A stretch of 64,000 nt of DNA from Eledone cirrhosa (GCA_964016885.1 OZ024741.1:103416001-103480000), one strand, 5' to 3'. Counted from the first letter of the stretch, positions 7,036-51,509 are shown. Made by a program: numbers and translations. The notes: generated by a model from the letters alone, not told the origin.

Positions 7036-7071
7036 GTTGGGTGAGGAACGGGGCAAGTGAGAAAGGATCAC

Positions 7072-8732: not shown

Positions 8733-8782
<50 letters not shown>

Positions 8783-27829: not shown

Positions 27830-28911
27830 AGCCAGTTTTCTGTCCATTTCTATCCAGTCTGTCTTTCTACCTATGTCTGATATTTGTCTGTGTGTCTGTC
27901 TCCTTATCGGCCTGTCTTTCTATCTGCCTCTCAACCTGTGTGTCTGACTATCTCTCAGTCTGTCTCTGTCTGATCTTTGTGTATGTGTGTCTCTCTGCCT
28001 GTTAGTCGGTCTGTAACTGTCAGATTGCCTGTGTCTGATGTGTGTGTGTATGTCTCTCAGTCTGTCTGTCAGTCTGTCAGTCTGTCAGTCAGTCTTTCTG
28101 TCAGACTGTCTGTCAGTTAGATGTCTGTCTATTTGTCGCTTTTTTTGTCAGCCTGTGTATGCCTGTGTTTGTGTCTGTCAGTCTGGTAGTTTCTCTCTCT
28201 CTATCAGTCTGTATGTATGTCTATGTATCAATATATGTGTGTGTGCATGTGTGTGTATGTGTGTGTGTGTGTGCGTGTGCAAGTGTGTGTTTGTGTGTTT
28301 GTGTGTGTCAGTATGAATGAATATGTGTGTGTCCTTGAATCTGCTGTCGGTCAATCTGTTAGTCCCCATGTGATTCTGGCTGTTATTGTCTGTCAGTCGA
28401 CCAATATATAAGTAGCATGTTTGTCACTGTGTTTTCCTGTCTGTATGTGTCTGATGTCTGTGTGTGTGTGTGTGTGTCAGTCGCTCTGTCACTATGTCAA
28501 TCTGTGTGACAGTCTGTATACATGTGTGTCTGTGTGTGTGTGTACCTGTCTGTCAGACTGTCAGTCTGTCAGTCTATCAGTCTGTCAGTCTGCCAGTCTA
28601 TCAGTCTGTCAGTCTGTCAGTCTGTCAGTCTGTCAGTCTATCAGTTTATCAGTCTGTCAGTCTATCAGTCTGTCAGTCTATCAGTCTATCAGTTTATCAG
28701 TCTGTCAGTCTGTCAGTCTATCAGTCTATCAGTCTATCAGTCTGTCAGTCTATCAGTCTGTCAGTCTATCAGTCTATCAGTTTATCAGTCTGTCAGGCTG
28801 TCAGTCTGTCAGTCTGTCAGTCTGTCAGTCTATCAGTCTGTCAGTCTGTCAGTCTGTCAGTCTGTCAGTCTATCAGTCTATCAGTCTGTCAGTCTGTCAG
28901 TCTATCAGTCT
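27830..28911. repeat. (TCAGTCTG/TCAGTCTA)n satellite, degenerate and TG-mixed distally, homogeneous from about 28549
   Basis: Direct reading. Runs straight into the first array element. Confidence 0.92.
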
Positions 28912-29086
28912 GAGGATAGTAGACGTGTGTCATATCGCTCTGTGATTTGGATTTTTACCTGCTAATTTTGTGAGTGGATTTTTTTGAATTATTTTGTATA
29001 ATTAACTGTAACCCCTAGTCTGGGACTCTAGACGTCGGGTAAATATATTTTCACCCCTTTTGGGGTGAAAAATAAATATTTGAGAA

Positions 29087-30838
29087 ATGTTTATCGATAT
29101 CGTTGATAACGATATCGTCGAAAACGATATCGCCATATTGGAAGCGAACGCCACGCCGACCAAAAAAACAAGCGGGAAAGAGGGAACAACAGTTCAAACT
29201 GTTGAACAACCCCTCCTCTCCAATGAAAAAAAGAATTTCAATTCAAATGAAAAAATTAATTTTCAAGAAAAAAATAACACCACAAATAAGGAAACCAACA
29301 ACATTACAACAACAAACAAAGACAAAATTTCTTTTGCCCAAACACTCAAGAGAGCCACGGAGTACAAAGCCATTGACATCACGAACGCCAAGGAAAATTT
29401 GCTAGAGGCTAGAAAATACGTATCTTTTGGGGAGGATGGTTCTTTTACGATCAACTCCCCAGAAGAAGTGCGTGAACAGATTTACAAGAATACCGTAAGC
29501 TTCAGAACCATAACCAACGAAACGAGAAAGCCAGCGCAATTGACCGAAAGTCAAATCGAGCTGGTTCTGAAAGAAATTAAAAATGACATACTCTTTATTC
29601 AAAGAGGAAAGCTGTATGCCAGCATTATGGTCCGAATGAAGGACGAAATGCTGGCTCAGAAATATTCGGTGGCACCTATTGTGTCACCACAATACACCTT
29701 CTTCCCCACATATAAAGGAAGAAGAACACAAAGGATAAGAATGTGGAGCCCTACGCCAGAAATTAACATCTGGTCCGTCCTAACAGGATTTACCGACCTA
29801 GATAAGGACATACTAATTTCAGCAGGGGAGTCCACCAGTGGACTGTTCGGGGGGAAAAGTCTGGAGGTTCTCTTACAGATGACACCTGAGAGAATCTCCG
29901 GAATACCCGACCGAGTGCTACTGGATGGGCGAACCTACATAAATATCACAGTGGAAGGCAGGAGACCCTCATGTTACCACTGCGCTGGCAGAGGTCACCT
30001 GAGGACGGCCTGCCCTCTACTAACAACTAAAAAACCACTGCTACAAACACCACAACAACAACAAAAACAACCAGCACCACCATCACAAAAACAACAAAAT
30101 ACACTACCATCTCCACCAGAACAACAAAAACCAACAACACCACCACCACCACAACAACAACAACATCAACAACAGCTCAAGAAAACAACCCAAAACACGG
30201 TCCCACCCAGCCCCACCCCACAGAACACAAATACAAAAACAGTTCATACACAACCCGGAGATATACCCCTCCCCTCCAATACGGAAGAGGAGCTCATATC
30301 GTCGGAAGACGAGGGGGCTCCCTTCCAAAAAGTGAAAAGAAAAAAACGTACACACACCACAACAACAAAAATAACCCCACCTGACAACACAACACAGACA
30401 ATAAAACGCAAACTCACTCAACAACAACAAGCAAAAACAAACACAACAACACAAAAACTCTACACATACATAAACAAAAACAATGAAAACCTAACTTTAA
30501 AAATAGAAACCAACCCTTCGATACAAACCGAAGGGCCGAATTTCGTAACGGCAATGGGGCTCCCTAACCTGAAAATGGTGAAAATCCCACTTGACATTTT
30601 TAAAACTTTAAAAGACATGTACCCTGAGGACGTGGGCCCACCCTGCACCAGGCCACTCAACCGCGTCCTCCTGAAAGGTTTTCCCCTCCCCTCCTCAAAC
30701 ACCCACACAACTCCAAAGATCCCAACCCCTCCACACACTAATACCCCCACACCACCACAAACCACCACCCCACCCATCAACCCCTCCACCAGCCCCATGG
30801 AAACTGAGCGACCCGAACCCCGGGATGCAGAGAGGTAA
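29087..30838 (+). CDS. ORF1p, gag-like nucleic-acid-binding protein (583 aa)
   Basis: CYHCAGRGHLRTAC (CX2CX4HX4C) knuckle, Q/P/T-rich tail, basic KVKRKKR patch. Lies upstream of ORF2. Confidence 0.93.
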   Translation: MFIDIVDNDIVENDIAILEANATPTKKTSGKEGTTVQTVEQPLLSNEKKNFNSNEKINFQEKNNTTNKETNNITTTNKDKISFAQTLKRATEYKAIDITNAKENLLEARKYVSFGEDGSFTINSPEEVREQIYKNTVSFRTITNETRKPAQLTESQIELVLKEIKNDILFIQRGKLYASIMVRMKDEMLAQKYSVAPIVSPQYTFFPTYKGRRTQRIRMWSPTPEINIWSVLTGFTDLDKDILISAGESTSGLFGGKSLEVLLQMTPERISGIPDRVLLDGRTYINITVEGRRPSCYHCAGRGHLRTACPLLTTKKPLLQTPQQQQKQPAPPSQKQQNTLPSPPEQQKPTTPPPPQQQQHQQQLKKTTQNTVPPSPTPQNTNTKTVHTQPGDIPLPSNTEEELISSEDEGAPFQKVKRKKRTHTTTTKITPPDNTTQTIKRKLTQQQQAKTNTTTQKLYTYINKNNENLTLKIETNPSIQTEGPNFVTAMGLPNLKMVKIPLDIFKTLKDMYPEDVGPPCTRPLNRVLLKGFPLPSSNTHTTPKIPTPPHTNTPTPPQTTTPPINPSTSPMETERPEPRDAER

Positions 30839-30861
30839 GTGCCTCTTTCTTTGCCACCAAC

Positions 30862-33800
30862 ATGGCTGTCTTAAGAGTAGGTTGTCTAAATGCGCGTGGC
30901 CTGGGCTCACCTTGGAAGCAAGCTAAACTTCTAAGTGACCTCAGGTCACAATGTGTAAATGTGATGGTTATTTGCGAGGCCCGGATCAGCAGCATGCGAC
31001 AGCTAGCCCCCACCTTTGATGACTTTGAGATGCACGCATCTCTCTGTCAGCCTGGAGGTGGGGGTGGGGTTGTCGTTCTGCTGCAAAAACATCTGGGTCT
31101 CGCTACACAGACGGTACACTTGGACCCGGAGGGTCGACTCGTGGTTCTGGACCTTGGCAATGGCGAAGGCGAAGCTTTTAGGCTTGTCGCCGTATACGCC
31201 CCTTTTGGGGCAATGCGGTCGGACTTCTTCCATCGTCTGGAGACTTTTCTAGGGACGTCCCGCTCCTTGCTTTTAGTGGGGGACTGGAATGGTATCCTAG
31301 ATGCACGTTGGGACTATGTAGGGGCATGTCCCGATAGAGGGGGGTGTAACAGCCTTAAGGGGTTAATCGGCCGATTCGACCTGGCCGATAGATACCGACT
31401 AGATTTTCCGACTGTACCAACCTGGACCTGGTCAAATAACAGTGGTCAATCTAGATCGTACCTAGATAGGTTCTTAGTTAGAATTAAGGATAGGGACTTT
31501 TTAAGTTGTCCAGAAATGCTCATGGTGGGCTATTCAGACCACAAGTTAGTGACCTGCGTAGTCCACCTTGATAGAACGCATAGGCAGGGGCCCGGTTACT
31601 GGAAGCTCAACTTGTCCTTACCGGCAAGTAGAGCTTACAGGGACCGGATTAGAACCTTAGTTAAGGAGCAGTTGACGGGCGCCATCGTCAACAACAGGTG
31701 GTGGGGCTCTCTAAAAAGAGAGATTAGAGTAGTTTCAATAGGAGTTAGTAAGGAGTTAGCCTCAGATAGAAATAGGAAGGAAAGGGAGTTGGTAGTTAAT
31801 GTTGAAGAGGCAATGAGAAGCGGCAACGTGGCCAGAGTGCAAGCGTCGAGAACGGTCTTGAACCAGTTCTTCGACGCGAAACACGAAGGCTGCGTTGTCC
31901 GAAGCAAAATACGTGCTCTGGGAAACGAGGGGACCAAAGCTGTTAGCTGGGCCCGCGTGACAGAAGCGAAAAGTGGGATTAAATCCACTATCCGGTCTTT
32001 GCGAGACCAGGATGGACGGCTGATCCTTGAACCTAAGCAAATGTGCGAGGCCTTTCAAAGGCACTTTGCCCAATTGTTCGGGAGGGGCGGGGAGCCGGTT
32101 GGAGATGTGGATTTCGGTCCATACCTCGACGGCCTGCCGCGTCTTTCGGACAGGGAGGCGAGGTCCTGCGACGGGCCGATCTCAGCTGCTGAAATAGGGG
32201 ACGTGCTGAGCCTATGCGGCAAACGCAAATCTCCAGGACTCGATGGTCTGCCCTACGAACTATATATTAATATGCCGGACTTGTTCCCCGATCTCCTCGA
32301 GGCGGTCTACTGCAACTGGCAACAGAACGGGAGAATTCCCTGTTCTGTGACCAAGGGCGTAGTCTCGCTAGTGAGGAAGGACGAGAACAAGGGGGATGAC
32401 ATTAGTAATTTTAGGCCCATAACTCTGCTAAATGCAGAGTTAAAGATTTTGGCGAAGGTGTTAGCGAAGAGGTTGGCGCTTGTCGTGGGGGGCCTGGTGG
32501 GAGATGCGCAGACATGCGCTATCCCGTCCAGGTCCATCCACGACAACCTCCACCTCATGCGATACATCATAGAGAGGGTTGGGAACGAACCCGGCTTTGG
32601 TGGGGCCCTGATAAATTTAGATCAGTCTAAAGCGTTCGATAGGGTGGACCATGGTTACCTGGATGCGGTGCTAGCGGCGGCTGGGTTCGGACCCGTTTTC
32701 AGGGGCTGGATCACTGCCATGCACAGCAGCCGCATCTGCTCTAGAATCAAGGTGAACGGCTACCTTTCGGAGCCGTTCGAAATCACCCGCTCCATCCGAC
32801 AGGGGTGCCCTCTCTCCTCCCTTCTGTATGTATTGACTCTCGAGCCATTACTGCGGAAGTTGGAGTTGTTGCAGGGCATCCCTTTGGAACCGGGATTGCG
32901 CAAAGCGGTGTCGGCCTACGCCGATGACGTAACAGTAATGGTGTCGACCGCCTCGGAAATCGAGGCAATCGGCACCTTACTAGAGGAGTACGAAAGGTTG
33001 ACAGGGGCTAAGCTGAACCGGGACAAGTCAGTCGCTTTGCAACTCGGCGAGTGGAGGGGCAAAGCGATGTCGTGCGACGGTATCGTCGGACGGTGGACGG
33101 AGGGCCCGGTGAAGTTGCTTGGGGTCTGGTTCGGACCGGACCTCCAGGTGGAGAAAAACTGGGGTGAGGTGACGAATAGGGTGTTTGCACTGACCCAGAA
33201 GTGGGCTGAGTGCAAACTATCCCTAAAAGGTCGGGCGGAGGTGGCGAACGCTTACATAGCGTCCGTCATCTATTACCGCTTGACTGTCGTACCTTGCCCG
33301 GGTGAGATCCTCGCCAAAATGGAGCGCGCCCTCTTTTATTTCCTTTGGAAGAAGAGGTCTCCTCTAGTGAGGAGATCCATCTGCTGTCAACACCCTTTGA
33401 AAGGAGGGCTGGGGATGCCGTGGCTAAAAATGCGTAAACACGCATTGAGGCTAAGGCACCTCCACGTATTCCTCACCGGTCAACCGGTGTGGGCCCCGTT
33501 TGTGAGGCGAGCCTTCCCGAGGCTCGTCTCGCTCACCGAGCTGCAGTCCTGGGTGAAGCAAAGACCGAGAAAACTGGGCGACTGGCACACCGAGTGTGCC
33601 CAGGCGCTCACGGCTCTCTGGCAGGCGGACCCGGCTATCGACGGAGACTCCACCTCGTCATTCTATAGAGGGCTGGTGGTTAGCGGGTGCGACGACGCCC
33701 TCGGAGAAGCCCTAGGCATGGAGGAGGACGAACTGGCCAGTCTATTCGGTAGGACTTTCGGCCCGGGACCTATGGACAACTTCCAGAAGTCCTTGGCCTG

Positions 33801-34299
33801 GCAGTGCTACCGAGGGGCTCTGCCCGTTCGGGATAAGCTCTACAGACACGGGCGCCCGGGTAGGGACCCCTCGAAAAAGATCTGTCCCAGATGCGTGCGC
33901 GACGAGGAAACCGTCGCGCACGCATTGGTGCACTGCCCGGGCGTTGCCGATCTGTGGGGCTATGTTGAACAACTGCTGTCACGGGTGGGACCAATTAGGT
34001 TGACCACCGAGTCCATTGTAACGATCAAGCCGCCTCCCCCCTTCAAAAATGAAGGAGAGGCGGTCTTCCTCTGTGTAATAGCCATGGTAAAAGAGGCTAT
34101 ATGGTGGACGCGTCTGAAAGGGCTGAGGTCGGACACCTTTCTCTCCGGCCAACAACTGGTCCTTTTTTTCCGATACCATTTCGGAAGAAGGATCAGGATG
34201 GAGAGAGAGGTGCTCCACTCCAGCCAGTTTTATGAAAGGTGGGTGAAAGTTGCGAGAATGGCCCGTGTGAATGGGCCTTCTCTCTACCTCAGCCTGTAG
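30862..34299 (+). CDS. ORF2p, APE endonuclease-reverse transcriptase-zinc finger (1145 aa)
   Basis: NARG, CE, VYAP, GDWN, YLDR and SDH endonuclease motifs. GPGYWKLN linker. KSPGLDG, FRPITLLN, DQSKAFDRV, QGCPLS and YADD RT motifs. CPRC..ETVAHALVHC finger. Kozak-like GCCACCAACATGG. Confidence 0.97.
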   Translation: MAVLRVGCLNARGLGSPWKQAKLLSDLRSQCVNVMVICEARISSMRQLAPTFDDFEMHASLCQPGGGGGVVVLLQKHLGLATQTVHLDPEGRLVVLDLGNGEGEAFRLVAVYAPFGAMRSDFFHRLETFLGTSRSLLLVGDWNGILDARWDYVGACPDRGGCNSLKGLIGRFDLADRYRLDFPTVPTWTWSNNSGQSRSYLDRFLVRIKDRDFLSCPEMLMVGYSDHKLVTCVVHLDRTHRQGPGYWKLNLSLPASRAYRDRIRTLVKEQLTGAIVNNRWWGSLKREIRVVSIGVSKELASDRNRKERELVVNVEEAMRSGNVARVQASRTVLNQFFDAKHEGCVVRSKIRALGNEGTKAVSWARVTEAKSGIKSTIRSLRDQDGRLILEPKQMCEAFQRHFAQLFGRGGEPVGDVDFGPYLDGLPRLSDREARSCDGPISAAEIGDVLSLCGKRKSPGLDGLPYELYINMPDLFPDLLEAVYCNWQQNGRIPCSVTKGVVSLVRKDENKGDDISNFRPITLLNAELKILAKVLAKRLALVVGGLVGDAQTCAIPSRSIHDNLHLMRYIIERVGNEPGFGGALINLDQSKAFDRVDHGYLDAVLAAAGFGPVFRGWITAMHSSRICSRIKVNGYLSEPFEITRSIRQGCPLSSLLYVLTLEPLLRKLELLQGIPLEPGLRKAVSAYADDVTVMVSTASEIEAIGTLLEEYERLTGAKLNRDKSVALQLGEWRGKAMSCDGIVGRWTEGPVKLLGVWFGPDLQVEKNWGEVTNRVFALTQKWAECKLSLKGRAEVANAYIASVIYYRLTVVPCPGEILAKMERALFYFLWKKRSPLVRRSICCQHPLKGGLGMPWLKMRKHALRLRHLHVFLTGQPVWAPFVRRAFPRLVSLTELQSWVKQRPRKLGDWHTECAQALTALWQADPAIDGDSTSSFYRGLVVSGCDDALGEALGMEEDELASLFGRTFGPGPMDNFQKSLAWQCYRGALPVRDKLYRHGRPGRDPSKKICPRCVRDEETVAHALVHCPGVADLWGYVEQLLSRVGPIRLTTESIVTIKPPPPFKNEGEAVFLCVIAMVKEAIWWTRLKGLRSDTFLSGQQLVLFFRYHFGRRIRMEREVLHSSQFYERWVKVARMARVNGPSLYLSL

Positions 34300-34732
34300 G
34301 TGGAACAGAAAGAAGGGAGCACTCTCTCTTTGTGCTCCCGTGGAGAAGGGTCGCACACTTTTTTTTCGGGGGTGTGTGTGACCCCAAAACGATCCCTCCC
34401 TATTGAGGACCTTCTTGTTATTATTCTGTTTGTTATATTTTTCTTACTCGATTTTTATGTAAACTCCCCCCACCCATGTAAATGTCCCTTTCTTTTGTGC
34501 CCTAGTGGCAAATAAACAGAAATTAGTCTGTCAGTCTGTCAGTCTATCAGTCTGTCTGAGGATAGTAGACGTGTGTCATATCGCTCTGTGATTTGGATTT
34601 TTACCTGCTAATTTTGTGAGTGGATTTTTTTGAATTATTTTGTATAATTAACTGTAACCCCTAGTCTGGGACTCTAGACGTCGGGTAAATATATTTTCAC
34701 CCCTTTTGGGGTGAAAAATAAATATTTGAGAA

Positions 34733-36484
34733 ATGTTTATCGATATCGTTGATAACGATATCGTCGAAAACGATATCGCCATATTGGAAGCGAACGCCAC
34801 GCCGACCAAAAAAACAAGCGGGAAAGAGGGAACAACAGTTCAAACTGTTGAACAACCCCTCCTCTCCAATGAAAAAAAGAATTTCAATTCAAATGAAAAA
34901 ATTAATTTTCAAGAAAAAAATAACACCACAAATAAGGAAACCAACAACATTACAACAACAAACAAAGACAAAATTTCTTTTGCCCAAACACTCAAGAGAG
35001 CCACGGAGTACAAAGCCATTGACATCACGAACGCCAAGGAAAATTTGCTAGAGGCTAGAAAATACGTATCTTTTGGGGTGGATGGTTCTTTTACGATCAA
35101 CTCCCCAGAAGAAGTGCGTGAACAGATTTACAAGAATACCGTAAGCTTCAGAACCATAACCAACGAAACGAGAAAGCCAGCGCAATTGACCGAAAGTCAA
35201 ATCGAGCTGGTTCTGAAAGAAATTAAAAATGACATACTCTTTATTCAAAGAGGAAAGCTGTATGCCAGCATTATGGTCCGAATGAAGGACGAAATGCTGG
35301 CTCAGAAATATTCGGTGGCACCTATAGTGTCACCACAATACACCTTCTTCCCCACATATAAAGGAAGAAGAACACAAAGGATAAGAATGTGGAGCCCTAC
35401 GCCAGAAATTAACATCTGGTCCGTCCTAACAGGATTTACCGACCTAGATAAGGACATACTAATTTCAGCAGGGGAGTCCACCAGTGGACTGTTCGGGGGG
35501 AAAAGTCTGGAGGTTCTCTTACAGATGACACCTGAGAGAATCTCCGGAATACCCGACCGAGTGCTACTGGATGGGCGAACCTACATAAATATCACAGTGG
35601 AAGGCAGGAGACCCTCATGTTACCACTGCGCTGGCAGAGGTCACCTGAGGACGGCCTGCCCTCTACTAACAACTAAAAAACCACTGCTACAAACACCACA
35701 ACAACAACAAAAACAACCAGCACCACCATCACAAAAACAACAAAATACACTACCATCTCCACCAGAACAACAAAAACCAACAACACCACCACCACCACAA
35801 CAACAACAACATCAACAACAGCTCAAGAAAACAACCCAAAACACGGTCCCACCCAGCCCCACCCCACAGAACACAAATACAAAAACAGTTCATACACAAC
35901 CCGGAGATATACCCCTCCCCTCCAATACGGAAGAGGAGCTCATATCGTCGGAAGACGAGGGGGCTCCCTTCCAAAAAGTGAAAAGAAAAAAACGTACACA
36001 CACCACAACAACAAAAATAACCCCACCTGACAACACAACACAGACAATAAAACGCAAACTCACTCAACAACAACAAGCAAAAACAAACACAACAACACAA
36101 AAACTCTACACATACATAAACAAAAACAATGAAAACCTAACTTTAAAAATAGAAACCAACCCTTCGATACAAACCGAAGGGCCGAATTTCGTAACGGCAA
36201 TGGGGCTCCCTAACCTGAAAATGGTGAAAATCCCACTTGACATTTTTAAAACTTTAAAAGACATGTACCCTGAGGACGTGGGCCCACCCTGCACCAGGCC
36301 ACTCAACCGCGTCCTCCTGAAAGGTTTTCCCCTCCCCTCCTCAAACACCCACACAACTCCAAAGATCCCAACCCCTCCACACACTAATACCCCCACACCA
36401 CCACAAACCACCACCCCACCCATCAACCCCTCCACCAGCCCCATGGAAACTGAGCGACCCGAACCCCGGGATGCAGAGAGGTAA
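34733..36484 (+). CDS. ORF1p (unit 2)
   Basis: As unit 1, with one E>V change. Confidence 0.93.
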   Translation: MFIDIVDNDIVENDIAILEANATPTKKTSGKEGTTVQTVEQPLLSNEKKNFNSNEKINFQEKNNTTNKETNNITTTNKDKISFAQTLKRATEYKAIDITNAKENLLEARKYVSFGVDGSFTINSPEEVREQIYKNTVSFRTITNETRKPAQLTESQIELVLKEIKNDILFIQRGKLYASIMVRMKDEMLAQKYSVAPIVSPQYTFFPTYKGRRTQRIRMWSPTPEINIWSVLTGFTDLDKDILISAGESTSGLFGGKSLEVLLQMTPERISGIPDRVLLDGRTYINITVEGRRPSCYHCAGRGHLRTACPLLTTKKPLLQTPQQQQKQPAPPSQKQQNTLPSPPEQQKPTTPPPPQQQQHQQQLKKTTQNTVPPSPTPQNTNTKTVHTQPGDIPLPSNTEEELISSEDEGAPFQKVKRKKRTHTTTTKITPPDNTTQTIKRKLTQQQQAKTNTTTQKLYTYINKNNENLTLKIETNPSIQTEGPNFVTAMGLPNLKMVKIPLDIFKTLKDMYPEDVGPPCTRPLNRVLLKGFPLPSSNTHTTPKIPTPPHTNTPTPPQTTTPPINPSTSPMETERPEPRDAER

Positions 36485-36507
36485 GTGCCTCTTTCTTTGC
36501 CACCAAC

Positions 36508-39500
36508 ATGGCTGTCTTAAGAGTAGGTTGTCTAAATGCGCGTGGCCTGGGCTCACCTTGGAAGCAAGCTAAACTTCTAAGTGACCTCAGGTCACAATGT
36601 GTAAATGTGATGGTTATTTGCGAGGCCCGGATCAGCAGCATGCGACAGCTAACCCCCACCTTTGATGACTTTGAGATGCACGCATCTCTCTGTCAGCCCG
36701 GAGGTGGGGGTGGGGTTGTCGTTCTGCTGCAAAAACATCTGGGTCTCGCTACACAGACGGTACACTTGGACCCGGAGGGTCGACTCGTGGTTCTGGACCT
36801 TGGCAATGGCGAAGGCGAAGCTTTTAGGCTTGTCGCCGTATACGCCCCTTTTGGGGCAATGCGGTCGGACTTCTTCCATCGTCTGGAGACTTTTCTAGGG
36901 ACGTCCCGCTCCTTGCTTTTAGTGGGGGACTGGAATGGTATCCTAGATGCACGTTGGGACTATGTAGGGGCATGTCCCGATAGAGGGGGGTGTAACAGCC
37001 TTAAGGGGTTAATCGGCCGATTCGACCTGGCCGATAGATACCGACTAGATTTTCCGACTGTACCAACCTGGACCTGGTCAAATAACAGTGGTCAATCTAG
37101 ATCGTACCTAGATAGGTTCTTAGTTAGAATTAAGGATAGGGACTTTTTAAGTTGTCCAGAAATGCTCATGGTGGGCTATTCAGACCACAAGTTAGTGACC
37201 TGCGTAGTCCACCTTGATAGAACGCATAGGCAGGGGCCCGGTTACTGGAAGCTCAACTTGTCCTTACCGGCAAGTAGAGCTTACAGGGACCGGATTAGAA
37301 CCTTAGTTAAGGAGCAGTTGACGGGCGCCATCGTCAACAACAGGTGGTGGGGCTCTCTAAAAAGAGAGATTAGAGTAGTTTCAATAGGAGTTAGTAAGGA
37401 GTTAGCCTCAGATAGAAATAGGAAGGAAAGGGAGTTGGTAGTTAATGTTGAAGAGGCAATGAGAAGCGGCAACGTGGCCAGAGTGCAAGCGTCGAGAACG
37501 GTCTTGAACCAGTTCTTCGACGCGAAACACGAAGGCTGCGTTGTCCGAAGCAAAATACGTGCTCTGGGAAACGAGGGGACCAAAGCTGTTAGCTGGGCCC
37601 GCGTGACAGAAGCGAAAAGTGGGATTAAATCCACTATCCGGTCTTTGCGAGACCAGGATGGACGGCTGATCCTTGAACCTAAGCAAATGTGCGAGGCCTT
37701 TCAAAGGCACTTTGCCCAATTGTTCGGGAGGGGCGGGGAGCCGGTTGGAGATGTGGATTTCGGTCCATACCTCGACGGCCTGCCGCGTCTTTCGGACAGG
37801 GAGGCGAGGTCCTGCGACGGGCCGATCTCAGCTGCTGAAATAGGGGACGTGCTGAGCCTATGCGGCAAACGCAAATCTCCAGGACTCGATGGTCTGCCCT
37901 ACGAACTATATATTAATATGCCGGACTTGTTCCCCGATCTCCTCGAGGCGGTCTACTGCAACTGGCAACAGAACGGGAGAATTCCCTGTTCTGTGACCAA
38001 GGGCGTAGTCTCGCTAGTGAGGAAGGACGAGAACAAGGGGGATGACATTAGTAATTTTAGGCCCATAACTCTGCTAAATGCAGAGTTAAAGATTTTGGCG
38101 AAGGTGTTAGCGAAGAGGTTGGCGCTTGTCGTGGGGGGCCTGGTGGGAGATGCGCAGACATGCGCTATCCCGTCCAGGTCCATCCACGACAACCTCCACC
38201 TCATGCGATACATCATAGAGAGGGTTGGGAACGAACCCGGCTTTGGTGGGGCCCTGATAAATTTAGATCAGTCTAAAGCGTTCGATAGGGTGGACCATGG
38301 TTACCTGGATGCGGTGCTAGCGGCGGCTGGGTTCGGACCCGTTTTCAGGGGCTGGATCACTGCCATGCACAGCAGCCGCATCTGCTCTAGAATCAAGGTG
38401 AACGGCTACCTTTCGGAGCCGTTCGAAATCACCCGCTCCATCCGACAGGGGTGCCCTCTCTCCTCCCTTCTGTATGTATTGACTCTCGAGCCATTACTGC
38501 GGAAGTTGGAGTTGTTGCAGGGCATCCCTTTGGAACCGGGATTGCGCAAAGCGGTGTCGGCCTACGCCGATGACGTAACAGTAATGGTGTCGACCGCCTC
38601 GGAAATCGAGGCAATCGGCACCTTACTAGAGGAGTACGAAAGGTTGACAGGGGCTAAGCTGAACCGGGACAAGTCAGTCGCTTTGCAACTCGGCGAGTGG
38701 AGGGGCAAAGCGATGTCGTGCGACGGTATCGTCGGACGGTGGACGGAGGGCCCGGTGAAGTTGCTTGGGGTCTGGTTCGGACCGGACCTCCAGGTGGAGA
38801 AAAACTGGGGTGAGGTGACGAATAGGGTGTTTGCACTGACCCAGAAGTGGGCTGAGTGCAAACTATCCCTAAAAGGTCGGGCGGAGGTGGCGAACGCTTA
38901 CATAGCGTCCGTCATCTATTACCGCTTGACTGTCGTACCTTGCCCGGGTGAGATCCTCGCCAAAATGGAGCGCGCCCTCTTTTATTTCCTTTGGAAGAAG
39001 AGGTCTCCTCTAGTGAGGAGATCCATCTGCTGTCAACACCCTTTGAAAGGAGGGCTGGGGATGCCGTGGCTAAAAATGCGTAAACACGCATTGAGGCTAA
39101 GGCACCTCCACGTATTCCTCACCGGTCAACCGGTGTGGGCCCCGTTTGTGAGGCGAGCCTTCCCGAGGCTCGTCTCGCTCACCGAGCTGCAGTCCTGGGT
39201 GAAGCAAAGACCGAGAAAACTGGGCGACTGGCACACCGAGTGTGCCCAGGCGCTCACGGCTCTCTGGCAGGCGGACCCGGCTATCGACGGAGACTCCACC
39301 TCGTCATTCTATAGAGGGCTGGTGGTTAGCGGGTGCGACGACGCCCTCGGAGAAGCCCTAGGCATGGAGGAGGACGAACTGGCCAGTCTATTCGGTAGGA
39401 CTTTCGGCCCGGGACCTATGGACAACTTCCAGAAGTCCTTGGCCTGGCAGTGCTACCGAGGGGCTCTGCCCGTTCGGGATAAGCTCTACAGACACGGGCG

Positions 39501-39945
39501 CCCGGGTAGGGACCCCTCGAAAAAGATCTGTCCCAGATGCGTGCGCGACGAGGAAACCGTCGCGCACGCATTGGTGCACTGCCCGGGCGTTGCCGATCTG
39601 TGGGGCTATGTCGAACAACTGCTGTCACGGGTGGGACCAATTAGGTTGACCACCGAGTCCATTGTAACGATCAAGCCGCCTCCCCCCTTCAAAAATGAAG
39701 GAGAGGCGGTCTTCCTCTGTGTAATAGCCATGGTAAAAGAGGCTATATGGTGGACGCGTCTGAAAGGGCTGAGGTCGGACACCTTTCTCTCCGGCCAACA
39801 ACTGGTCCTTTTTTTCCGATACCATTTCGGAAGAAGGATCAGGATGGAGAGAGAGGTGCTCCACTCCAGCCAGTTTTATGAAAGGTGGGTGAAAGTTGCG
39901 AGAATGGCCCGTGTGAATGGGCCTTCTCTCTACCTCAGCCTGTAG
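36508..39945 (+). CDS. ORF2p APE-RT (unit 2)
   Basis: As unit 1, with one A>T change. Confidence 0.97.
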   Translation: MAVLRVGCLNARGLGSPWKQAKLLSDLRSQCVNVMVICEARISSMRQLTPTFDDFEMHASLCQPGGGGGVVVLLQKHLGLATQTVHLDPEGRLVVLDLGNGEGEAFRLVAVYAPFGAMRSDFFHRLETFLGTSRSLLLVGDWNGILDARWDYVGACPDRGGCNSLKGLIGRFDLADRYRLDFPTVPTWTWSNNSGQSRSYLDRFLVRIKDRDFLSCPEMLMVGYSDHKLVTCVVHLDRTHRQGPGYWKLNLSLPASRAYRDRIRTLVKEQLTGAIVNNRWWGSLKREIRVVSIGVSKELASDRNRKERELVVNVEEAMRSGNVARVQASRTVLNQFFDAKHEGCVVRSKIRALGNEGTKAVSWARVTEAKSGIKSTIRSLRDQDGRLILEPKQMCEAFQRHFAQLFGRGGEPVGDVDFGPYLDGLPRLSDREARSCDGPISAAEIGDVLSLCGKRKSPGLDGLPYELYINMPDLFPDLLEAVYCNWQQNGRIPCSVTKGVVSLVRKDENKGDDISNFRPITLLNAELKILAKVLAKRLALVVGGLVGDAQTCAIPSRSIHDNLHLMRYIIERVGNEPGFGGALINLDQSKAFDRVDHGYLDAVLAAAGFGPVFRGWITAMHSSRICSRIKVNGYLSEPFEITRSIRQGCPLSSLLYVLTLEPLLRKLELLQGIPLEPGLRKAVSAYADDVTVMVSTASEIEAIGTLLEEYERLTGAKLNRDKSVALQLGEWRGKAMSCDGIVGRWTEGPVKLLGVWFGPDLQVEKNWGEVTNRVFALTQKWAECKLSLKGRAEVANAYIASVIYYRLTVVPCPGEILAKMERALFYFLWKKRSPLVRRSICCQHPLKGGLGMPWLKMRKHALRLRHLHVFLTGQPVWAPFVRRAFPRLVSLTELQSWVKQRPRKLGDWHTECAQALTALWQADPAIDGDSTSSFYRGLVVSGCDDALGEALGMEEDELASLFGRTFGPGPMDNFQKSLAWQCYRGALPVRDKLYRHGRPGRDPSKKICPRCVRDEETVAHALVHCPGVADLWGYVEQLLSRVGPIRLTTESIVTIKPPPPFKNEGEAVFLCVIAMVKEAIWWTRLKGLRSDTFLSGQQLVLFFRYHFGRRIRMEREVLHSSQFYERWVKVARMARVNGPSLYLSL

Positions 39946-40402
39946 GTGGAACAGAAAGAAGGGAGCACTCTCTCTTTGTGCTCCCGTGGAGAAGGGTCGC
40001 ACACTTTTTTTTCGGGGGTGTGTGTGACCCCAAAACGATCCCTCCCTATTGAGGACCTTCTTGTTATTATTCTGTTTGTTATATTTTTCTTACTCGATTT
40101 TTATGTAAACTCCCCCCACCCATGTAAATGTCCCTTTCTTTTGTGCCCTAGTGGCAAATAAACAGAAATTAGTCTGTCAGTCTATCAGTCTATCAGTCTG
40201 TCAGTCTGTCAGTCTATCAGTCTGTCTGAGGATAGTAGACGTGTGTCATATCGCTCTGTGATTTGGATTTTTACCTGCTAATTTTGTGAGTGGATTTTTT
40301 TGAATTATTTTGTATAATTAACTGTAACCCCTAGTCTGGGACTCTAGACGTCGGGTAAATATATTTTCACCCCTTTTGGGGTGAAAAATAAATATTTGAG
40401 AA

Positions 40403-42154
40403 ATGTTTATCGATATCGTTGATAACGATATCGTCGAAAACGATATCGCCATATTGGAAGCGAACGCCACGCCGACCAAAAAAACAAGCGGGAAAGAGGG
40501 AACAACAGTTCAAACTGTTGAACAACCCCTCCTCTCCAATGAAAAAAAGAATTTCAATTCAAATGAAAAAATTAATTTTCAAGAAAAAAATAACACCACA
40601 AATAAGGAAACCAACAACATTACAACAACAAACAAAGACAAAATTTCTTTTGCCCAAACACTCAAGAGAGCCACGGAGTACAAAGCCATTGACATCACGA
40701 ACGCCAAGGAAAATTTGCTAGAGGCTAGAAAATACGTATCTTTTGGGGTGGATGGTTCTTTTACGATCAACTCCCCAGAAGAAGTGCGTGAACAGATTTA
40801 CAAGAATACCGTAAGCTTCAGAACCATAACCAACGAAACGAGAAAGCCAGCGCAATTGACCGAAAGTCAAATCGAGCTGGTTCTGAAAGAAATTAAAAAT
40901 GACATACTCTTTATTCAAAGAGGAAAGCTGTATGCCAGCATTATGGTCCGAATGAAGGACGAAATGCTGGCTCAGAAATATTCGGTGGCACCTATAGTGT
41001 CACCACAATACACCTTCTTCCCCACATATAAAGGAAGAAGAACACAAAGGATAAGAATGTGGAGCCCTACGCCAGAAATTAACATCTGGTCCGTCCTAAC
41101 AGGATTTACCGACCTAGATAAGGACATACTAATTTCAGCAGGGGAGTCCACCAGTGGACTGTTCGGGGGGAAAAGTCTGGAGGTTCTCTTACAGATGACA
41201 CCTGAGAGAATCTCCGGAATACCCGACCGAGTGCTACTGGATGGGCGAACCTACATAAATATCACAGTGGAAGGCAGGAGACCCTCATGTTACCACTGCG
41301 CTGGCAGAGGTCACCTGAGGACGGCCTGCCCTCTACTAACAACTAAAAAACCACTGCTACAAACACCACAACAACAACAAAAACAACCAGCACCACCATC
41401 ACAAAAACAACAAAATACACTACCATCTCCACCAGAACAACAAAAACCAACAACACCACCACCACCACAACAACAACAACATCAACAACAGCTCAAGAAA
41501 ACAACCCAAAACACGGTCCCACCCAGCCCCACCCCACAGAACACAAATACAAAAACAGTTCATACACAACCCGGAGATATACCCCTCCCCTCCAATACGG
41601 AAGAGGAGCTCATATCGTCGGAAGACGAGGGGGCTCCCTTCCAAAAAGTGAAAAGAAAAAAACGTACACACACCACAACAACAAAAATAACCCCACCTGA
41701 CAACACAACACAGACAATAAAACGCAAACTCACTCAACAACAACAAGCAAAAACAAACACAACAACACAAAAACTCTACACATACATAAACAAAAACAAT
41801 GAAAACCTAACTTTAAAAATAGAAACCAACCCTTCGATACAAACCGAAGGGCCGAATTTCGTAACGGCAATGGGGCTCCCTAACCTGAAAATGGTGAAAA
41901 TCCCACTTGACATTTTTAAAACTTTAAAAGACATGTACCCTGAGGACGTGGGCCCACCCTGCACCAGGCCACTCAACCGCGTCCTCCTGAAAGGTTTTCC
42001 CCTCCCCTCCTCAAACACCCACACAACTCCAAAGATCCCAACCCCTCCACACACCAATACCCCCACACCACCACAAACCACCACCCCACCCATCAACCCC
42101 GCCACCAGCCCCATGGAAACTGAGCGACCCGAACCCCGGGACGCAGAGAGGTAA
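40403..42154 (+). CDS. ORF1p (unit 3)
   Basis: As unit 2, with S>A near the C-terminus. Confidence 0.93.
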   Translation: MFIDIVDNDIVENDIAILEANATPTKKTSGKEGTTVQTVEQPLLSNEKKNFNSNEKINFQEKNNTTNKETNNITTTNKDKISFAQTLKRATEYKAIDITNAKENLLEARKYVSFGVDGSFTINSPEEVREQIYKNTVSFRTITNETRKPAQLTESQIELVLKEIKNDILFIQRGKLYASIMVRMKDEMLAQKYSVAPIVSPQYTFFPTYKGRRTQRIRMWSPTPEINIWSVLTGFTDLDKDILISAGESTSGLFGGKSLEVLLQMTPERISGIPDRVLLDGRTYINITVEGRRPSCYHCAGRGHLRTACPLLTTKKPLLQTPQQQQKQPAPPSQKQQNTLPSPPEQQKPTTPPPPQQQQHQQQLKKTTQNTVPPSPTPQNTNTKTVHTQPGDIPLPSNTEEELISSEDEGAPFQKVKRKKRTHTTTTKITPPDNTTQTIKRKLTQQQQAKTNTTTQKLYTYINKNNENLTLKIETNPSIQTEGPNFVTAMGLPNLKMVKIPLDIFKTLKDMYPEDVGPPCTRPLNRVLLKGFPLPSSNTHTTPKIPTPPHTNTPTPPQTTTPPINPATSPMETERPEPRDAER

Positions 42155-42177
42155 GTGCCTCTTTCTTTGCCACCAAC

Positions 42178-45100
42178 ATGGCTGTCTTAAGAGTGGGTTG
42201 TCTAAATGCGCGTGGCCTGGGCTCACCTTGGAAGCAAGCTAAACTTCTAAGTGACCTCAGGTCACAATGTGTAAATGTGATGGTTATTTGCGAGGCCCGG
42301 ATCAGCAGCATGCGACAGCTAACCCCCACCTTTGATGACTTTGAGATGCACGCATCTCTCTGTCAGCCCGGAGGTGGGGGTGGGGTTGTCGTTCTGCTGC
42401 AAAAACATCTGGGTCTCGCTACACAGACGGTACACTTGGACCCGGAGGGTCGACTCGTGGTTCTGGACCTTGGCAATGGCGAAGGCGAAGCTTTTAGGCT
42501 TGTCGCCGTATACGCCCCTTTTGGGGCAATGCGGTCGGACTTCTTCCATCGTCTGGAGACTTTTCTAGGGACGTCCCGCTCCTTGCTTTTAGTGGGGGAC
42601 TGGAATGGTATCCTAGATGCACGTTGGGACTATGTAGGGGCATGTCCCGATAGAGGGGGGTGTAACAGCCTTAAGGGGTTAATCGGCCGATTCGACCTGG
42701 CCGATAGATACCGACTAGATTTTCCGACTGTACCAACCTGGACCTGGTCAAATAACAGTGGTCAATCTAGATCGTACCTAGATAGGTTCTTAGTTAGAAT
42801 TAAGGATAGGGACTTTTTAAGTTGTCCAGAAATGCTCATGGTGGGCTATTCAGACCACAAGTTAGTGACCTGCGTAGTCCACCTTGATAGAACGCATAGG
42901 CAGGGGCCCGGTTACTGGAAGCTCAACTTGTCCTTACCGGCAAGTAGAGCTTACAGGGACCGGATTAGAACCTTAGTTAAGGAGCAGTTGACGGGCGCCA
43001 TCGTCAACAACAGGTGGTGGGGCTCTCTAAAAAGAGAGATTAGAGTAGTTTCAATAGGAGTTAGTAAGGAGTTAGCCTCAGATAGAAATAGGAAGGAAAG
43101 GGAGTTGGTAGTTAATGTTGAAGAGGCAATGAGAAGCGGCAACGTGGCCAGAGTGCAAGCGTCGAGAACGGTCTTGAACCAGTTCTTCGACGCGAAACAC
43201 GAAGGCTGCGTTGTCCGAAGCAAAATACGTGCTCTGGGAAACGAGGGGACCAAAGCTGTTAGCTGGGCCCGCGTGACAGAAGCGAAAAGTGGGATTAAAT
43301 CCACTATCCGGTCTTTGCGAGACCAGGATGGACGGCTGATCCTTGAACCTAAGCAAATGTGCGAGGCCTTTCAAAGGCACTTTGCCCAATTGTTCGGGAG
43401 GGGCGGGGAGCCGGTTGGAGATGTGGATTTCGGTCCATACCTCGACGGCCTGCCGCGTCTTTCGGACAGGGAGGCGAGGTCCTGCGACGGGCCGATCTCA
43501 GCTGCTGAAATAGGGGACGTGCTGAGCCTATGCGGCAAACGCAAATCTCCAGGACTCGATGGTCTGCCCTACGAACTATATATTAATATGCCGGACTTGT
43601 TCCCCGATCTCCTCGAGGCGGTCTACTGCAACTGGCAACAGAACGGGAGAATTCCCTGTTCTGTGACCAAGGGCGTAGTCTCGCTAGTGAGGAAGGACGA
43701 GAACAAGGGGGATGACATTAGTAATTTTAGGCCCATAACTCTGCTAAATGCAGAGTTAAAGATTTTGGCGAAGGTGTTAGCGAAGAGGTTGGCGCTTGTC
43801 GTGGGGGGCCTGGTGGGAGATGCGCAGACATGCGCTATCCCGTCCAGGTCCATCCACGACAACCTCCACCTCATGCGATACATCATAGAGAGGGTTGGGA
43901 ACGAACCCGGCTTTGGTGGGGCCCTGATAAATTTAGATCAGTCTAAAGCGTTCGATAGGGTGGACCATGGTTACCTGGATGCGGTGCTAGCGGCGGCTGG
44001 GTTCGGACCCGTTTTCAGGGGCTGGATCACTGCCATGCACAGCAGCCGCATCTGCTCTAGAATCAAGGTGAACGGCTACCTTTCGGAGCCGTTCGAAATC
44101 ACCCGCTCCATCCGACAGGGGTGCCCTCTCTCCTCCCTTCTGTATGTATTGACTCTCGAGCCATTACTGCGGAAGTTGGAGTTGTTGCAGGGCATCCCTT
44201 TGGAACCGGGATTGCGCAAAGCGGTGTCGGCCTACGCCGATGACGTAACAGTAATGGTGTCGACCGCCTCGGAAATCGAGGCAATCGGCACCTTACTAGA
44301 GGAGTACGAAAGGTTGACAGGGGCTAAGCTGAACCGGGACAAGTCAGTCGCTTTGCAACTCGGCGAGTGGAGGGGCAAAGCGATGTCGTGCGACGGTATC
44401 GTCGGACGGTGGACGGAGGGCCCGGTGAAGTTGCTTGGGGTCTGGTTCGGACCGGACCTCCAGGTGGAGAAAAACTGGGGTGAGGTGACGAATAGGGTGT
44501 TTGCACTGACCCAGAAGTGGGCTGAGTGCAAACTATCCCTAAAAGGTCGGGCGGAGGTGGCGAACGCTTACATAGCGTCCGTCATCTATTACCGCTTGAC
44601 TGTCGTACCTTGCCCGGGTGAGATCCTCGCCAAAATGGAGCGCGCCCTCTTTTATTTCCTTTGGAAGAAGAGGTCTCCTCTAGTGAGGAGATCCATCTGC
44701 TGTCAACACCCTTTGAAAGGAGGGCTGGGGATGCCGTGGCTAAAAATGCGTAAACACGCATTGAGGCTAAGGCACCTCCACGTATTCCTCACCGGTCAAC
44801 CGGTGTGGGCCCCGTTTGTGAGGCGAGCCTTCCCGAGGCTCGTCTCGCTCACCGAGCTGCAGTCCTGGGTGAAGCAAAGACCGAGAAAACTGGGCGACTG
44901 GCACACCGAGTGTGCCCAGGCGCTCACGGCTCTCTGGCAGGCGGACCCGGCTATCGACGGAGACTCCACCTCGTCATTCTATAGAGGGCTGGTGGTTAGC
45001 GGGTGCGACGACGCCCTCGGAGAAGCCCTAGGCATGGAGGAGGACGAACTGGCCAGTCTATTCGGTAGGACTTTCGGCCCGGGACCTATGGACAACTTCC

Positions 45101-45615
45101 AGAAGTCCTTGGCCTGGCAGTGCTACCGAGGGGCTCTGCCCGTTCGGGATAAGCTCTACAGACACGGGCGCCCGGGTAGGGACCCCTCGAAAAAGATCTG
45201 TCCCAGATGCGTGCGCGACGAGGAAACCGTCGCGCACGCATTGGTGCACTGCCCGGGCGTTGCCGATCTGTGGGGCTATGTCGAACAACTGCTGTCACGG
45301 GTGGGACCAATTAGGTTGACCACCGAGTCCATTGTAACGATCAAGCCGCCTCCCCCCTTCAAAAATGAAGGAGAGGCGGTCTTCCTCTGTGTAATAGCCA
45401 TGGTAAAAGAGGCTATATGGTGGACGCGTCTGAAAGGGCTGAGGTCGGACACCTTTCTCTCCGGCCAACAACTGGTCCTTTTTTTCCGATACCATTTCGG
45501 AAGAAGGATCAGGATGGAGAGAGAGGTGCTCCACTCCAGCCAGTTTTATGAAAGGTGGGTGAAAGTTGCGAGAATGGCCCGTGTGAATGGGCCTTCTCTC
45601 TACCTCAGCCTGTAG
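42178..45615 (+). CDS. ORF2p APE-RT (unit 3)
   Basis: Same protein as unit 2. Confidence 0.97.
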   Translation: MAVLRVGCLNARGLGSPWKQAKLLSDLRSQCVNVMVICEARISSMRQLTPTFDDFEMHASLCQPGGGGGVVVLLQKHLGLATQTVHLDPEGRLVVLDLGNGEGEAFRLVAVYAPFGAMRSDFFHRLETFLGTSRSLLLVGDWNGILDARWDYVGACPDRGGCNSLKGLIGRFDLADRYRLDFPTVPTWTWSNNSGQSRSYLDRFLVRIKDRDFLSCPEMLMVGYSDHKLVTCVVHLDRTHRQGPGYWKLNLSLPASRAYRDRIRTLVKEQLTGAIVNNRWWGSLKREIRVVSIGVSKELASDRNRKERELVVNVEEAMRSGNVARVQASRTVLNQFFDAKHEGCVVRSKIRALGNEGTKAVSWARVTEAKSGIKSTIRSLRDQDGRLILEPKQMCEAFQRHFAQLFGRGGEPVGDVDFGPYLDGLPRLSDREARSCDGPISAAEIGDVLSLCGKRKSPGLDGLPYELYINMPDLFPDLLEAVYCNWQQNGRIPCSVTKGVVSLVRKDENKGDDISNFRPITLLNAELKILAKVLAKRLALVVGGLVGDAQTCAIPSRSIHDNLHLMRYIIERVGNEPGFGGALINLDQSKAFDRVDHGYLDAVLAAAGFGPVFRGWITAMHSSRICSRIKVNGYLSEPFEITRSIRQGCPLSSLLYVLTLEPLLRKLELLQGIPLEPGLRKAVSAYADDVTVMVSTASEIEAIGTLLEEYERLTGAKLNRDKSVALQLGEWRGKAMSCDGIVGRWTEGPVKLLGVWFGPDLQVEKNWGEVTNRVFALTQKWAECKLSLKGRAEVANAYIASVIYYRLTVVPCPGEILAKMERALFYFLWKKRSPLVRRSICCQHPLKGGLGMPWLKMRKHALRLRHLHVFLTGQPVWAPFVRRAFPRLVSLTELQSWVKQRPRKLGDWHTECAQALTALWQADPAIDGDSTSSFYRGLVVSGCDDALGEALGMEEDELASLFGRTFGPGPMDNFQKSLAWQCYRGALPVRDKLYRHGRPGRDPSKKICPRCVRDEETVAHALVHCPGVADLWGYVEQLLSRVGPIRLTTESIVTIKPPPPFKNEGEAVFLCVIAMVKEAIWWTRLKGLRSDTFLSGQQLVLFFRYHFGRRIRMEREVLHSSQFYERWVKVARMARVNGPSLYLSL

Positions 45616-46072
45616 GTGGAACAGAAAGAAGGGAGCACTCTCTCTTTGTGCTCCCGTGGAGAAGGGTCGCACACTTTTTTTTCGGGGGTGTGTGTGACCC
45701 CAAAACGATCCCTCCCTATTGAGGACCTTCTTGTTATTATTCTGTTTGTTATATTTTTCTTACTCGATTTTTATGTAAACTCCCCCCACCCATGTAAATG
45801 TCCCTTTCTTTTGTGCCCTAGTGGCAAATAAACAGAAATTAGTCTGTCAGTCTATCAGTCTATCAGTCTGTCAGTCTGTCAGTCTATCAGTCTGTCTGAG
45901 GATAGTAGACGTGTGTCATATCGCTCTGTGATTTGGATTTTTACCTGCTAATTTTGTGAGTGGATTTTTTTGAATTATTTTGTATAATTAACTGTAACCC
46001 CTAGTCTGGGACTCTAGACGTCGGGTAAATATATTTTCACCCCTTTTGGGGTGAAAAATAAATATTTGAGAA

Positions 46073-47824: not shown

Positions 47825-47847
47825 GTGCCTCTTTCTTTGCCACCAAC

Positions 47848-51285: not shown

Positions 51286-51509
51286 GTGGAACAGAAAGAA
51301 GGGAGCACCCTCTCTTTGTGCTCCCGTGGAGAAGGGTCGCACACTTTTTTTCGGGGGTGTGTGTGACCCCAAAACGATCCCTCCCTATTGAGGACCTTCT
51401 TGTTATTATTTTGTTTGTTATATTTTTCTTACTCGATTTTTATGTAAACTCCCCCCACCCATGTACATGTCCCTTTCTTTTGTGCCCTAGTGGCAAATAA
51501 ACAGAAATT

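What the first reader, a model, noticed from the sequence alone, without database searches (positions are those of the whole stretch)
30833..34301. ORF2 sits exactly inside a potential intron: splice donor on the ORF1 stop, acceptor-like site on the ORF2 stop
Seen: ORF1 ends GAG AG|GTAAGT (30833-30840), a perfect 5' splice consensus containing the TAA stop. ORF2 ends CCTTCTCTCTACCTCAGCCTGTAG|GT, a pyrimidine tract plus AG overlapping the TAG stop, with an alternative CAG 7 nt earlier. The donor is conserved in diverged copy B (AAG|GTAAGT, minus strand 7078-7070) even though the surrounding ORF1 tail looks unrelated. Inference: splicing could give an ORF1-only mRNA with a new C-terminus (..ERWNRKKGALSLCAP..) and so set the ORF1p:ORF2p ratio, as subgenomic gag splicing does in copia-type LTR elements. 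Alternatively the U1 site may protect the transcript from premature polyadenylation. The acceptor is weaker in copies A and B.
Basis: partly seen in the sequence, partly recalled or inferred. Interest (0 to 1): 0.78.

Follow-up and report, generated by a model that had tools for sequence, protein, structure and literature searches.

The report
LINE with hairpin-masked splice donor
A young jumping-gene (LINE) family and five relatives in the same animal genome all keep a splice-donor sequence on the end of their first gene, predicted to be half-hidden in an RNA hairpin, which likely lets a minority of transcripts cut out the second gene and likely once spliced two neighbouring elements into a new family; no spliced RNA was seen.

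Summary
Four near-identical copies of an L1/Tx1-type LINE lie in tandem. The ORF1 stop sits inside a donor (cut 30834/30835), and the ORF2 stop TAG|G is the most pyrimidine-rich YAG of 105 downstream of it.

Six related lineages in this genome all carry G|GTRAGT at the ORF1 end, in two reading frames: 7 of 8 positions are invariant, against 21 of 91 fourfold sites. The pyrimidine spacer is predicted to pair with and mask the donor. The stop-site acceptor ranks 1-2 in four lineages, is weak in B and is absent in A, which has a strong one in its 3' UTR.

Subfamily A2 is B1's 5' UTR and ORF1 joined, exactly at B1's donor, to a point just after an AG in A1. This looks like a fossil splice between tandem elements.

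Against: no ORF2-less processed copy among 320 focal ORF1 ends, the new C-terminus is not conserved, and no RNA-labelled run was available.

Verdict: a real, selected, damped donor. The ORF1-only mRNA is plausible but unshown.

The parts
28915..29086 (+). 5' UTR of copy 1, with a hairpin just before the ORF1 ATG
   Evidence: -20.3 kcal/mol for the 63 nt ending at the ATG
29087..30838 (+). ORF1 (583 aa; weak CCHC knuckle; low-complexity tail)
   Evidence: zf-CCHC E 0.067, below the curated cut-off
30832..30840 (+). 5' splice-site motif holding the ORF1 stop; cut 30834/30835
30830..30847 (+). predicted hairpin: donor positions -5..+2 paired with the pyrimidine spacer, +3..+6 in the loop
30839..30861 (+). 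pyrimidine-rich inter-ORF spacer ending before the ORF2 ATG
30862..34299 (+). ORF2 (1145 aa; APE endonuclease, RT, C-terminal zinc region); the candidate intron is 30835-34299
34276..34300 (+). candidate acceptor on the ORF2 stop (rank 1 of 105 YAG); alternative AG at 34292
34300..34525 (+). 3' UTR; second-ranked YAG at 34505; AATAAA 34511-34516
28548..28912 (.). 8-bp-unit microsatellite target; repeats between and after the copies (34525-34556, 40171-40226, 45841-45896, 51510-51658)
34560..40170 (+). tandem copy 2 (ORF2 ATG 36508)
   Evidence: 99.8% identical
40230..45840 (+). tandem copy 3 (ORF2 ATG 42178)
   Evidence: 99.8% identical
45900..51509 (+). tandem copy 4 (ORF2 ATG 47848)
   Evidence: 99.5% identical
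3405..9400 (-). decayed family-B1 copy; intron start 7075, ORF2 ATG 7035
17..3400 (-). internally deleted family-A copy directly downstream of the B1 copy: the tandem order needed for an A2-type splice
17182..18255 (-). RT-region fragment of a related family
   Evidence: 80% nt identity

Best explanation
This is an L1/Tx1-type LINE lineage that keeps a splice-donor sequence on its ORF1 stop, predicted to be masked by the pyrimidine spacer behind it, so that most RNA would stay full-length while a minority would likely be spliced to an acceptor at or just after the ORF2 stop, giving an ORF1-only mRNA. Shown: the motif, its conservation across frames, the acceptor ranking and the A2 junction sequence. 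Predicted: the hairpin. Inferred: U1 binding, the low splicing rate and the ORF1-only product. Full-length RNA is the only template that can copy itself, so a strong donor can persist only if damped. The spliced minority would raise ORF1p over ORF2p, with a short 3' UTR and a new stop in the last exon. In read-through transcripts of tandem elements the same donor would sometimes join a cryptic AG in the next element; this likely founded subfamily A2.
For: (1) Lineages found by ORF2 similarity, not by the motif, all have G|GTRAGT at the ORF1 end. The stop is at +2..+4 in F1, E, G and A, and at +6..+8 in B and D; G uses the +3 G form. A and B are sisters yet differ in frame (tree). Fourfold-site identity between lineages is only 0.50-0.71. 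(2) Positions -1/+1 are predicted paired in 11 of 12 own-genome junctions in a 40-nt window, by different pairings: the exon end in F1/E/D, the intron half in B. (3) The ORF2-stop YAG ranks 1 in F1, 1 (tie) in E, 1-2 (ties) in D/D'. It ranks 1 in 5 and 2 in 1 of the 7 G copies scored; the seventh lost the TAG. A has a rank 1-2 YAG in its 3' UTR. Control: 0 of 36 distant ORF2s reach rank 1-2. (4) A2 matches B1 at 82-88% over 5' UTR and ORF1 up to B1's exon end, and matches A1 from that point (93-96%). The join is 43 nt out of homologous register with only the AG shared. 31 held locus ids show it (some duplicate) and none shows an intermediate. (5) Precedent: a conserved donor with a less conserved acceptor in Arabidopsis copia/EVD (PMC5580714, passages).
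Against: No ORF2-less processed copy: 310 intact focal donors plus 10 point variants, 0 acceptor-side joins, and none in the D, E, A, B, G variant searches (-68/70, 48/50). No RNA evidence of the splice. The acceptor's pyrimidines encode conserved Pro-Ser/Thr-Leu residues, so they may be a coding by-product; B lacks a good acceptor. F1, E and G are one clade, so the acceptor evidence rests on about two independent branches. Hairpin z-scores are modest (-0.7 to -3.9; 4 of 12 at or below -3), and covariation in the E/D helix is not significant (60 of 500 shuffles reach it). Non-splice rearrangements also start at the exon end (L401, 3-nt microhomology without AG; L408, inversion). A2 could also arise by template switching at a 5-nt match overlapping B1's stop, followed by a 5-nt deletion. 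Its AG has a poor pyrimidine tract, and its frame needed a further 1-nt insertion.
Confidence: 0.45

Rival explanations
1. The motif is a U1-binding site with a splicing-independent job: it protects or boosts full-length transcription of an A-rich element. The acceptor at the ORF2 stop is a coding by-product, and splicing (as in A2) is a rare accident.
For: The donor is invariant while the acceptor varies. No processed copies. AATAAA lies 350-530 nt upstream of the ORF2 ATG in F1, D, A1 and A2. U1 blocks premature termination in EVD (PMC5580714, passages).
Against: F1 has no AATAAA between the donor and its terminal signal, only one ATTAAA. Masking the site would work against constant U1 binding. 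It does not explain the rank 1-2 stop acceptors in four lineages against 0 of 36 controls.
Confidence: 0.25
2. The conserved unit is a stop-hairpin-spacer signal for termination and reinitiation at the ORF2 AUG, or a protein-binding loop; its likeness to a donor is incidental.
For: It always overlaps the ORF1 stop and lies 27-45 nt before the ORF2 AUG. A hairpin is predicted in most lineages. LINE ORF2 is made by termination-reinitiation in L1 and SART1 (PMC5972666, passages). Distant relatives have pyrimidine spacers without a donor (L354, L374).
Against: The variation follows the donor consensus (+3 A/G; -2 and -3 loose). In B the motif is in the stem rather than the loop, so the structure varies while the sequence does not. 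It does not explain the A2 join at the exon end.
Confidence: 0.2
3. Neutral inheritance: a stop-codon context shared by descent with no function.
For: The lineages are related (ORF2 58-97% identical), and the stop codon fixes up to three positions in each.
Against: 7 of 8 positions invariant against 23% of fourfold sites and 0 of 28 flanking upstream positions. The stop fixes different positions in the two frames.
Confidence: 0.05
4. The spacer is itself a micro-intron whose removal fuses ORF1 to ORF2.
For: G has a T-rich tract and CAG 31-37 nt after the donor, in frame with ORF2. The first AG is also in frame in F1 (41 nt) and A (52-53 nt).
Against: Out of frame in B, D and young E. A fused autonomous copy would be inherited, yet none of the 11 G hits is one. 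31-41 nt is below usual metazoan intron size (recalled).
Confidence: 0.05

Closest known systems
L1-superfamily LINEs, Tx1 clade (e.g. Kibi, Koshi; PMC4494074 passages)
   Same: Two ORFs, APE endonuclease plus RT, AATAAA near the 3' end, microsatellite targets, tandem arrays; best solved relative is human L1 ORF2p (E 8e-51).
   Different: A conserved donor on the ORF1 stop; only 2 of 27 distinct distant L1/Tx1-like elements show GTRAG there.
Arabidopsis Ty1/copia EVD shGAG splicing (PMC5580714, passages)
   Same: Works like it if the model holds: conserved donor at the end of the structural gene, weaker acceptor, unspliced full-length RNA dominant, possible dual role of U1.
   Different: A non-LTR element with two separate ORFs. 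Here the stop lies inside the donor in unspliced RNA and the intron would be all of ORF2 (3.46 kb). In EVD the short RNA is spliced and then ends prematurely. EVD is shown by experiment; this is not.
Human L1 splicing and SpIREs (PMC5860796, abstract, section 10, first part of Discussion)
   Same: A conserved, rarely used LINE donor; spliced RNAs leave retrotransposed fossils.
   Different: The L1 donor is in the 5' UTR and is kept for a RUNX3 site, and SpIREs are dead ends. Here the donor is at the ORF1 end and its likely product A2 is an amplified family with open ORF1 and ORF2 frames.
mRNA/LINE-1 splice chimeras (bioRxiv 10.1101/2025.02.02.635956, passages)
   Same: Chimeric insertions whose 5' part ends exactly at a splice donor.
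   Different: Those join host exons to L1; A2 joins two LINE families and swaps the 5' UTR and ORF1.

Membership tests
L1-superfamily non-LTR retrotransposon | ORF2 with N-terminal APE endonuclease and RT | tested here: met
   Exo_endo_phos 1.4e-6, RVT_1 1.3e-26
L1-superfamily non-LTR retrotransposon | ORF2 closest to L1 among solved RTs | tested here: met
   L1 ORF2p 8e-51 over residues 7-858; R2 4e-18
L1-superfamily non-LTR retrotransposon | Separate upstream ORF1 with nucleic-acid-binding motif | tested here: inconclusive
   ORF1 present; zf-CCHC E 0.067, below the cut-off
Tx1 clade | RT phylogeny with named Tx1 references | not testable with these tools
   no named Tx1 sequences held; the tree has unnamed relatives only
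Tx1 clade | Target preference for microsatellites or repeats | tested here: met
   focal copies sit in an 8-bp-unit satellite; relatives end in 3- and 4-bp-unit repeats; read by eye, not counted
Copia-type subgenomic splicing (works-like) | Conserved donor at the end of the structural ORF | tested here: met
Copia-type subgenomic splicing (works-like) | Spliced structural-protein-only RNA detected | not testable with these tools
   no RNA-labelled run listed
Copia-type subgenomic splicing (membership) | LTRs and a single gag-pol ORF | tested here: not met
   two ORFs with APE-RT, no LTR-type layout
SpIRE-like spliced retrocopy (A2 origin) | Junction exactly at a GT donor and after an AG | tested here: met
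   the 2-nt overlap and a two-step route leave it ambiguous
SpIRE-like spliced retrocopy (ORF2 removed) | Genomic copies lacking exactly the intron | tested here: not met
   0 among 320 focal ORF1 ends

The most novel reading that the evidence does not exclude
A LINE lineage has turned its whole ORF2 into a regulated, hairpin-damped intron, a non-LTR counterpart of copia's subgenomic gag RNA. The same donor shuffles ORF1/ORF2 modules by splicing between tandem elements, founding new autonomous families.
Probability: 0.35. Interest if true: 0.8.

Novelty: new variant of a known kind. Interest (0 to 1): 0.6.

Why it matters
LINEs need far more ORF1p than ORF2p (recalled), and the routes I found described are translational reinitiation and incidental splicing that is read as harmful. 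A donor kept under selection at the ORF1 end would be an RNA-processing route to that ratio in a non-LTR element. The A2 junction suggests that ORF1 and 5' UTR swaps between LINE families, usually put down to template switching (recalled), can come from splicing across tandem arrays and can found successful families. Both are testable with one RNA data set. Nine literature searches (listings only, open-licence library) showed no title or abstract start describing this arrangement.

Tried and rejected
RNA: no RNA holder was listed. The four runs are contigs of unrecorded kind; X1-X3 come from one sample and X4 from another. In X4 single contigs cross the donor unspliced in F1 (record 27) and in D and A2 (records 1 and 7). 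No donor-to-stop joint appears among the joints shown (15 of 108; 15 of 19). X4 may be RNA or low-pass DNA, so this counts neither for nor against.

X4 depth step: D ORF1's 3' part lies at depth about 190 against 21 across the donor. The contig breaks fall 14 nt before the donor, at sites where older subfamilies share words and diverge. Unexplained and not used.

First metagenome scan found no relative. The nearest outside proteins (about 40% identity) have no DNA context or names.

Micro-intron fusion: phases disagree. New C-terminus as a functional tag: not conserved. L391/L440 (family E, donor joined to ORF2 +85) is one base short of a clean splice and is ambiguous. L307/L251 (family G copy starting at the spacer AG) looks like a 5' truncation. 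Pairing of the spacer with 18S rRNA was a recalled idea and was not tested.

Processed-copy patterns were not exhaustive. For F1, second exons starting with G plus non-T, or with GTA, were missed on the donor side; for A and B, those with A at +4 or T at +6 were missed. Six of the 36 E hits were not fetched. Intact-donor totals were counted only for F1, and the genome-wide A2 copy number remains uncounted. Three look-ups of earlier findings returned nothing. No supplements were read.

Full report
What is there. Positions 28915-51509 hold four head-to-tail copies of a 5.65-kb element, 99.5-99.8% identical, in an 8-bp-unit microsatellite. ORF1 (583 aa) has a weak CCHC knuckle. ORF2 (1145 aa) has an APE endonuclease and RT and is closest to human L1 ORF2p among solved structures. 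The genome is 3.0 Gb, and all 150 scored candidates for the ORF2 start were 91-100% identical, so the family (F1) is young and numerous. The host looks cephalopod-like from size and repeats; that is recall and was not tested. The Tx1 label rests on architecture and targeting, not on a tree with named references.

Observation. All coordinates and the predicted spliced peptide check out.

Is the donor conserved? I collected relatives by ORF2 N-terminal similarity with five further queries and fetched full elements. Six lineages emerged: F1, E, G (one clade), D, and the sisters A and B. Each has G|GTRAGT 27-45 nt before the ORF2 ATG, overlapping the ORF1 stop. The stop is at +2..+4 in F1, E, A (TAA) and G (TGA), and at +6..+8 in B (TGA) and D (TAA). 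With one representative each, 7 of 8 positions from -2 to +6 are invariant, against 0 of 28 upstream positions, 1 of 14 downstream and 21 of 91 fourfold columns. Subfamily A2, not among the six, has C at -2. Because the stop fixes different positions in the two frames, stop conservation does not explain this. The trait is mostly lineage-specific. Of 80 distant metagenome loci, 63 were scored, 32 had an upstream ORF and 27 were distinct; 2 had GTRAG on the stop. One of these, L383, has the full donor plus U-rich spacer layout.

The spacer. It is 76-86% pyrimidine and is predicted to pair with the donor. In F1, E and D it pairs with the exon end and GT, leaving +3..+6 looped out; in B it pairs with -1..+8. 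Positions -1/+1 are paired in 11 of 12 own-genome junctions in a 40-nt window. Purine-rich donors pair easily with such tracts: z-scores run from -0.7 to -3.9, and the E/D helix has 2 of 7 pairs with double changes, reached by 60 of 500 shuffles. This is a prediction only.

The acceptor. By pyrimidine count in the 20 nt upstream, the ORF2-stop TAG ranks 1 of 105 in F1, ties first of 122 in E, and is first or second with ties in D and D'. It ranks first in 5 and second in 1 of 7 G copies scored. B ranks 10-13. A ends in TAA but has a rank 1-2 site in its 3' UTR. Among 36 distinct distant intact ORF2s (from the 80 loci), 6 end in TAG and none ranks 1-2. The tract also encodes conserved residues, the score is crude, and the four lineages are about two independent branches. 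The C-termini that splicing would add range from 1 to 91 aa and are unrelated.

Has the donor been used? No ORF2-less copy was found. F1 has 310 intact donors and 10 variants, all unspliced, and no foreign sequence joined to its acceptor. Variant searches in D (4 and 6 hits), E (6 and 36 hits, 30 fetched), A (13), B (14) and G (11) gave point changes, small indels, two deletions and one inversion starting at the exon end, and one truncation. An ORF1-only RNA could be copied only in trans, so absence is weak evidence; human spliced retrocopies are about 2% of full-length insertions even when cis-competent (PMC5860796, Discussion part 1).

The A2 junction. Seven of the 14 B hits exposed subfamily A2. 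Its 5' UTR and ORF1 match B1 at 82-88% up to the last base of B1's donor exon. From there it matches A1, starting just after an AG about 43 nt upstream of A1's donor. The join is out of homologous register and shares only the AG. 31 held locus ids carry it (some duplicates), 25 are B1-type, and none is an intermediate. B1 followed directly by an A-type element occurs in this window (9400 to 17, minus), and mixed tandems are common. The simplest reading is one splice in a read-through transcript, then retrotransposition in cis; I put this at about 0.65. Template switching plus a short deletion is the alternative, and L401 shows that non-splice breaks also land at exon ends.

RNA. No RNA-labelled run was listed; the contig results are recorded under Tried and rejected.

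Mechanism. Most likely the donor is a true U1 site (about 0.8), damped by the spacer so that full-length RNA dominates. A minority would be spliced to the best downstream acceptor, giving ORF1-only mRNA (0.45 for the whole chain). Rivals are a splicing-independent U1 role (0.25), a reinitiation hairpin (0.2), neutral descent (0.05) and a micro-intron (0.05).

Comparison and novelty. It is an L1-superfamily LINE. If the model holds it works like copia EVD (PMC5580714, passages) but is not a member of that kind. It differs from L1 SpIREs in donor position and in the success of its product. Splice-made chimeras with host exons are described (10.1101/2025.02.02.635956, passages). Reinitiation in L1 and SART1 is reviewed in PMC5972666 (passages). 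Tx1 targeting is from PMC4494074 (passages). An octopus repeat annotation lists active L1-Tx1 families and has no mention of splicing or introns in its main text (PMC13282606). Nine searches listed nothing describing this layout; subscription papers and supplements were not seen. Verdict: new variant of a known kind, interest 0.6.

Noticed in passing
window 29030-29085; L163, L169, L222, L084 just upstream of the ORF1 ATG: Each family has a hairpin of different sequence right before the ORF1 start (folded for F1 only; others read by eye).
   Followed up: partly
5' UTRs: window 28970-28975 (F1), L163 (D), L222 and L227 (E): Donor-like words 25-60 nt from the 5' end. In E a T-rich stretch and a YAG follow about 70 nt later, like a small intron.
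   Followed up: no
window 30798-30838 and families E, G, D: A Met 13-15 codons before the ORF1 stop, in a conserved M-E-x-x-x-P-D/E peptide, inside an otherwise low-complexity tail.
   Followed up: no
L383:1140-1190: A distant L1/Tx1-like element from a metagenome contig with the same donor-on-stop plus U-rich spacer; possibly an independent origin.
   Followed up: partly
L161:3708-4864 (family D ORF1, run X4): Contig depth about 190 against about 20 on either side; run kind unknown; unexplained.
   Followed up: partly
L161-L180, L215-L234, window 28548-51658: Families differ in target repeat (8-bp unit for F1, 4-bp unit for E, 3-bp unit for A, B, D) and stack in mixed tandem arrays.
   Followed up: no
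L242, L261, L459-L466 (family G spacer): A canonical-looking 31-37-nt donor-to-CAG cassette, in frame with ORF2, whose length varies mostly in steps of 3.
   Followed up: partly
L225: E-type 5' half with a G-type 3' end: a recombinant within ORF2.
   Followed up: no
window 26950-27585: 48-bp tandem repeat, 13 copies, 98% matches, open in a frame on both strands.
   Followed up: no
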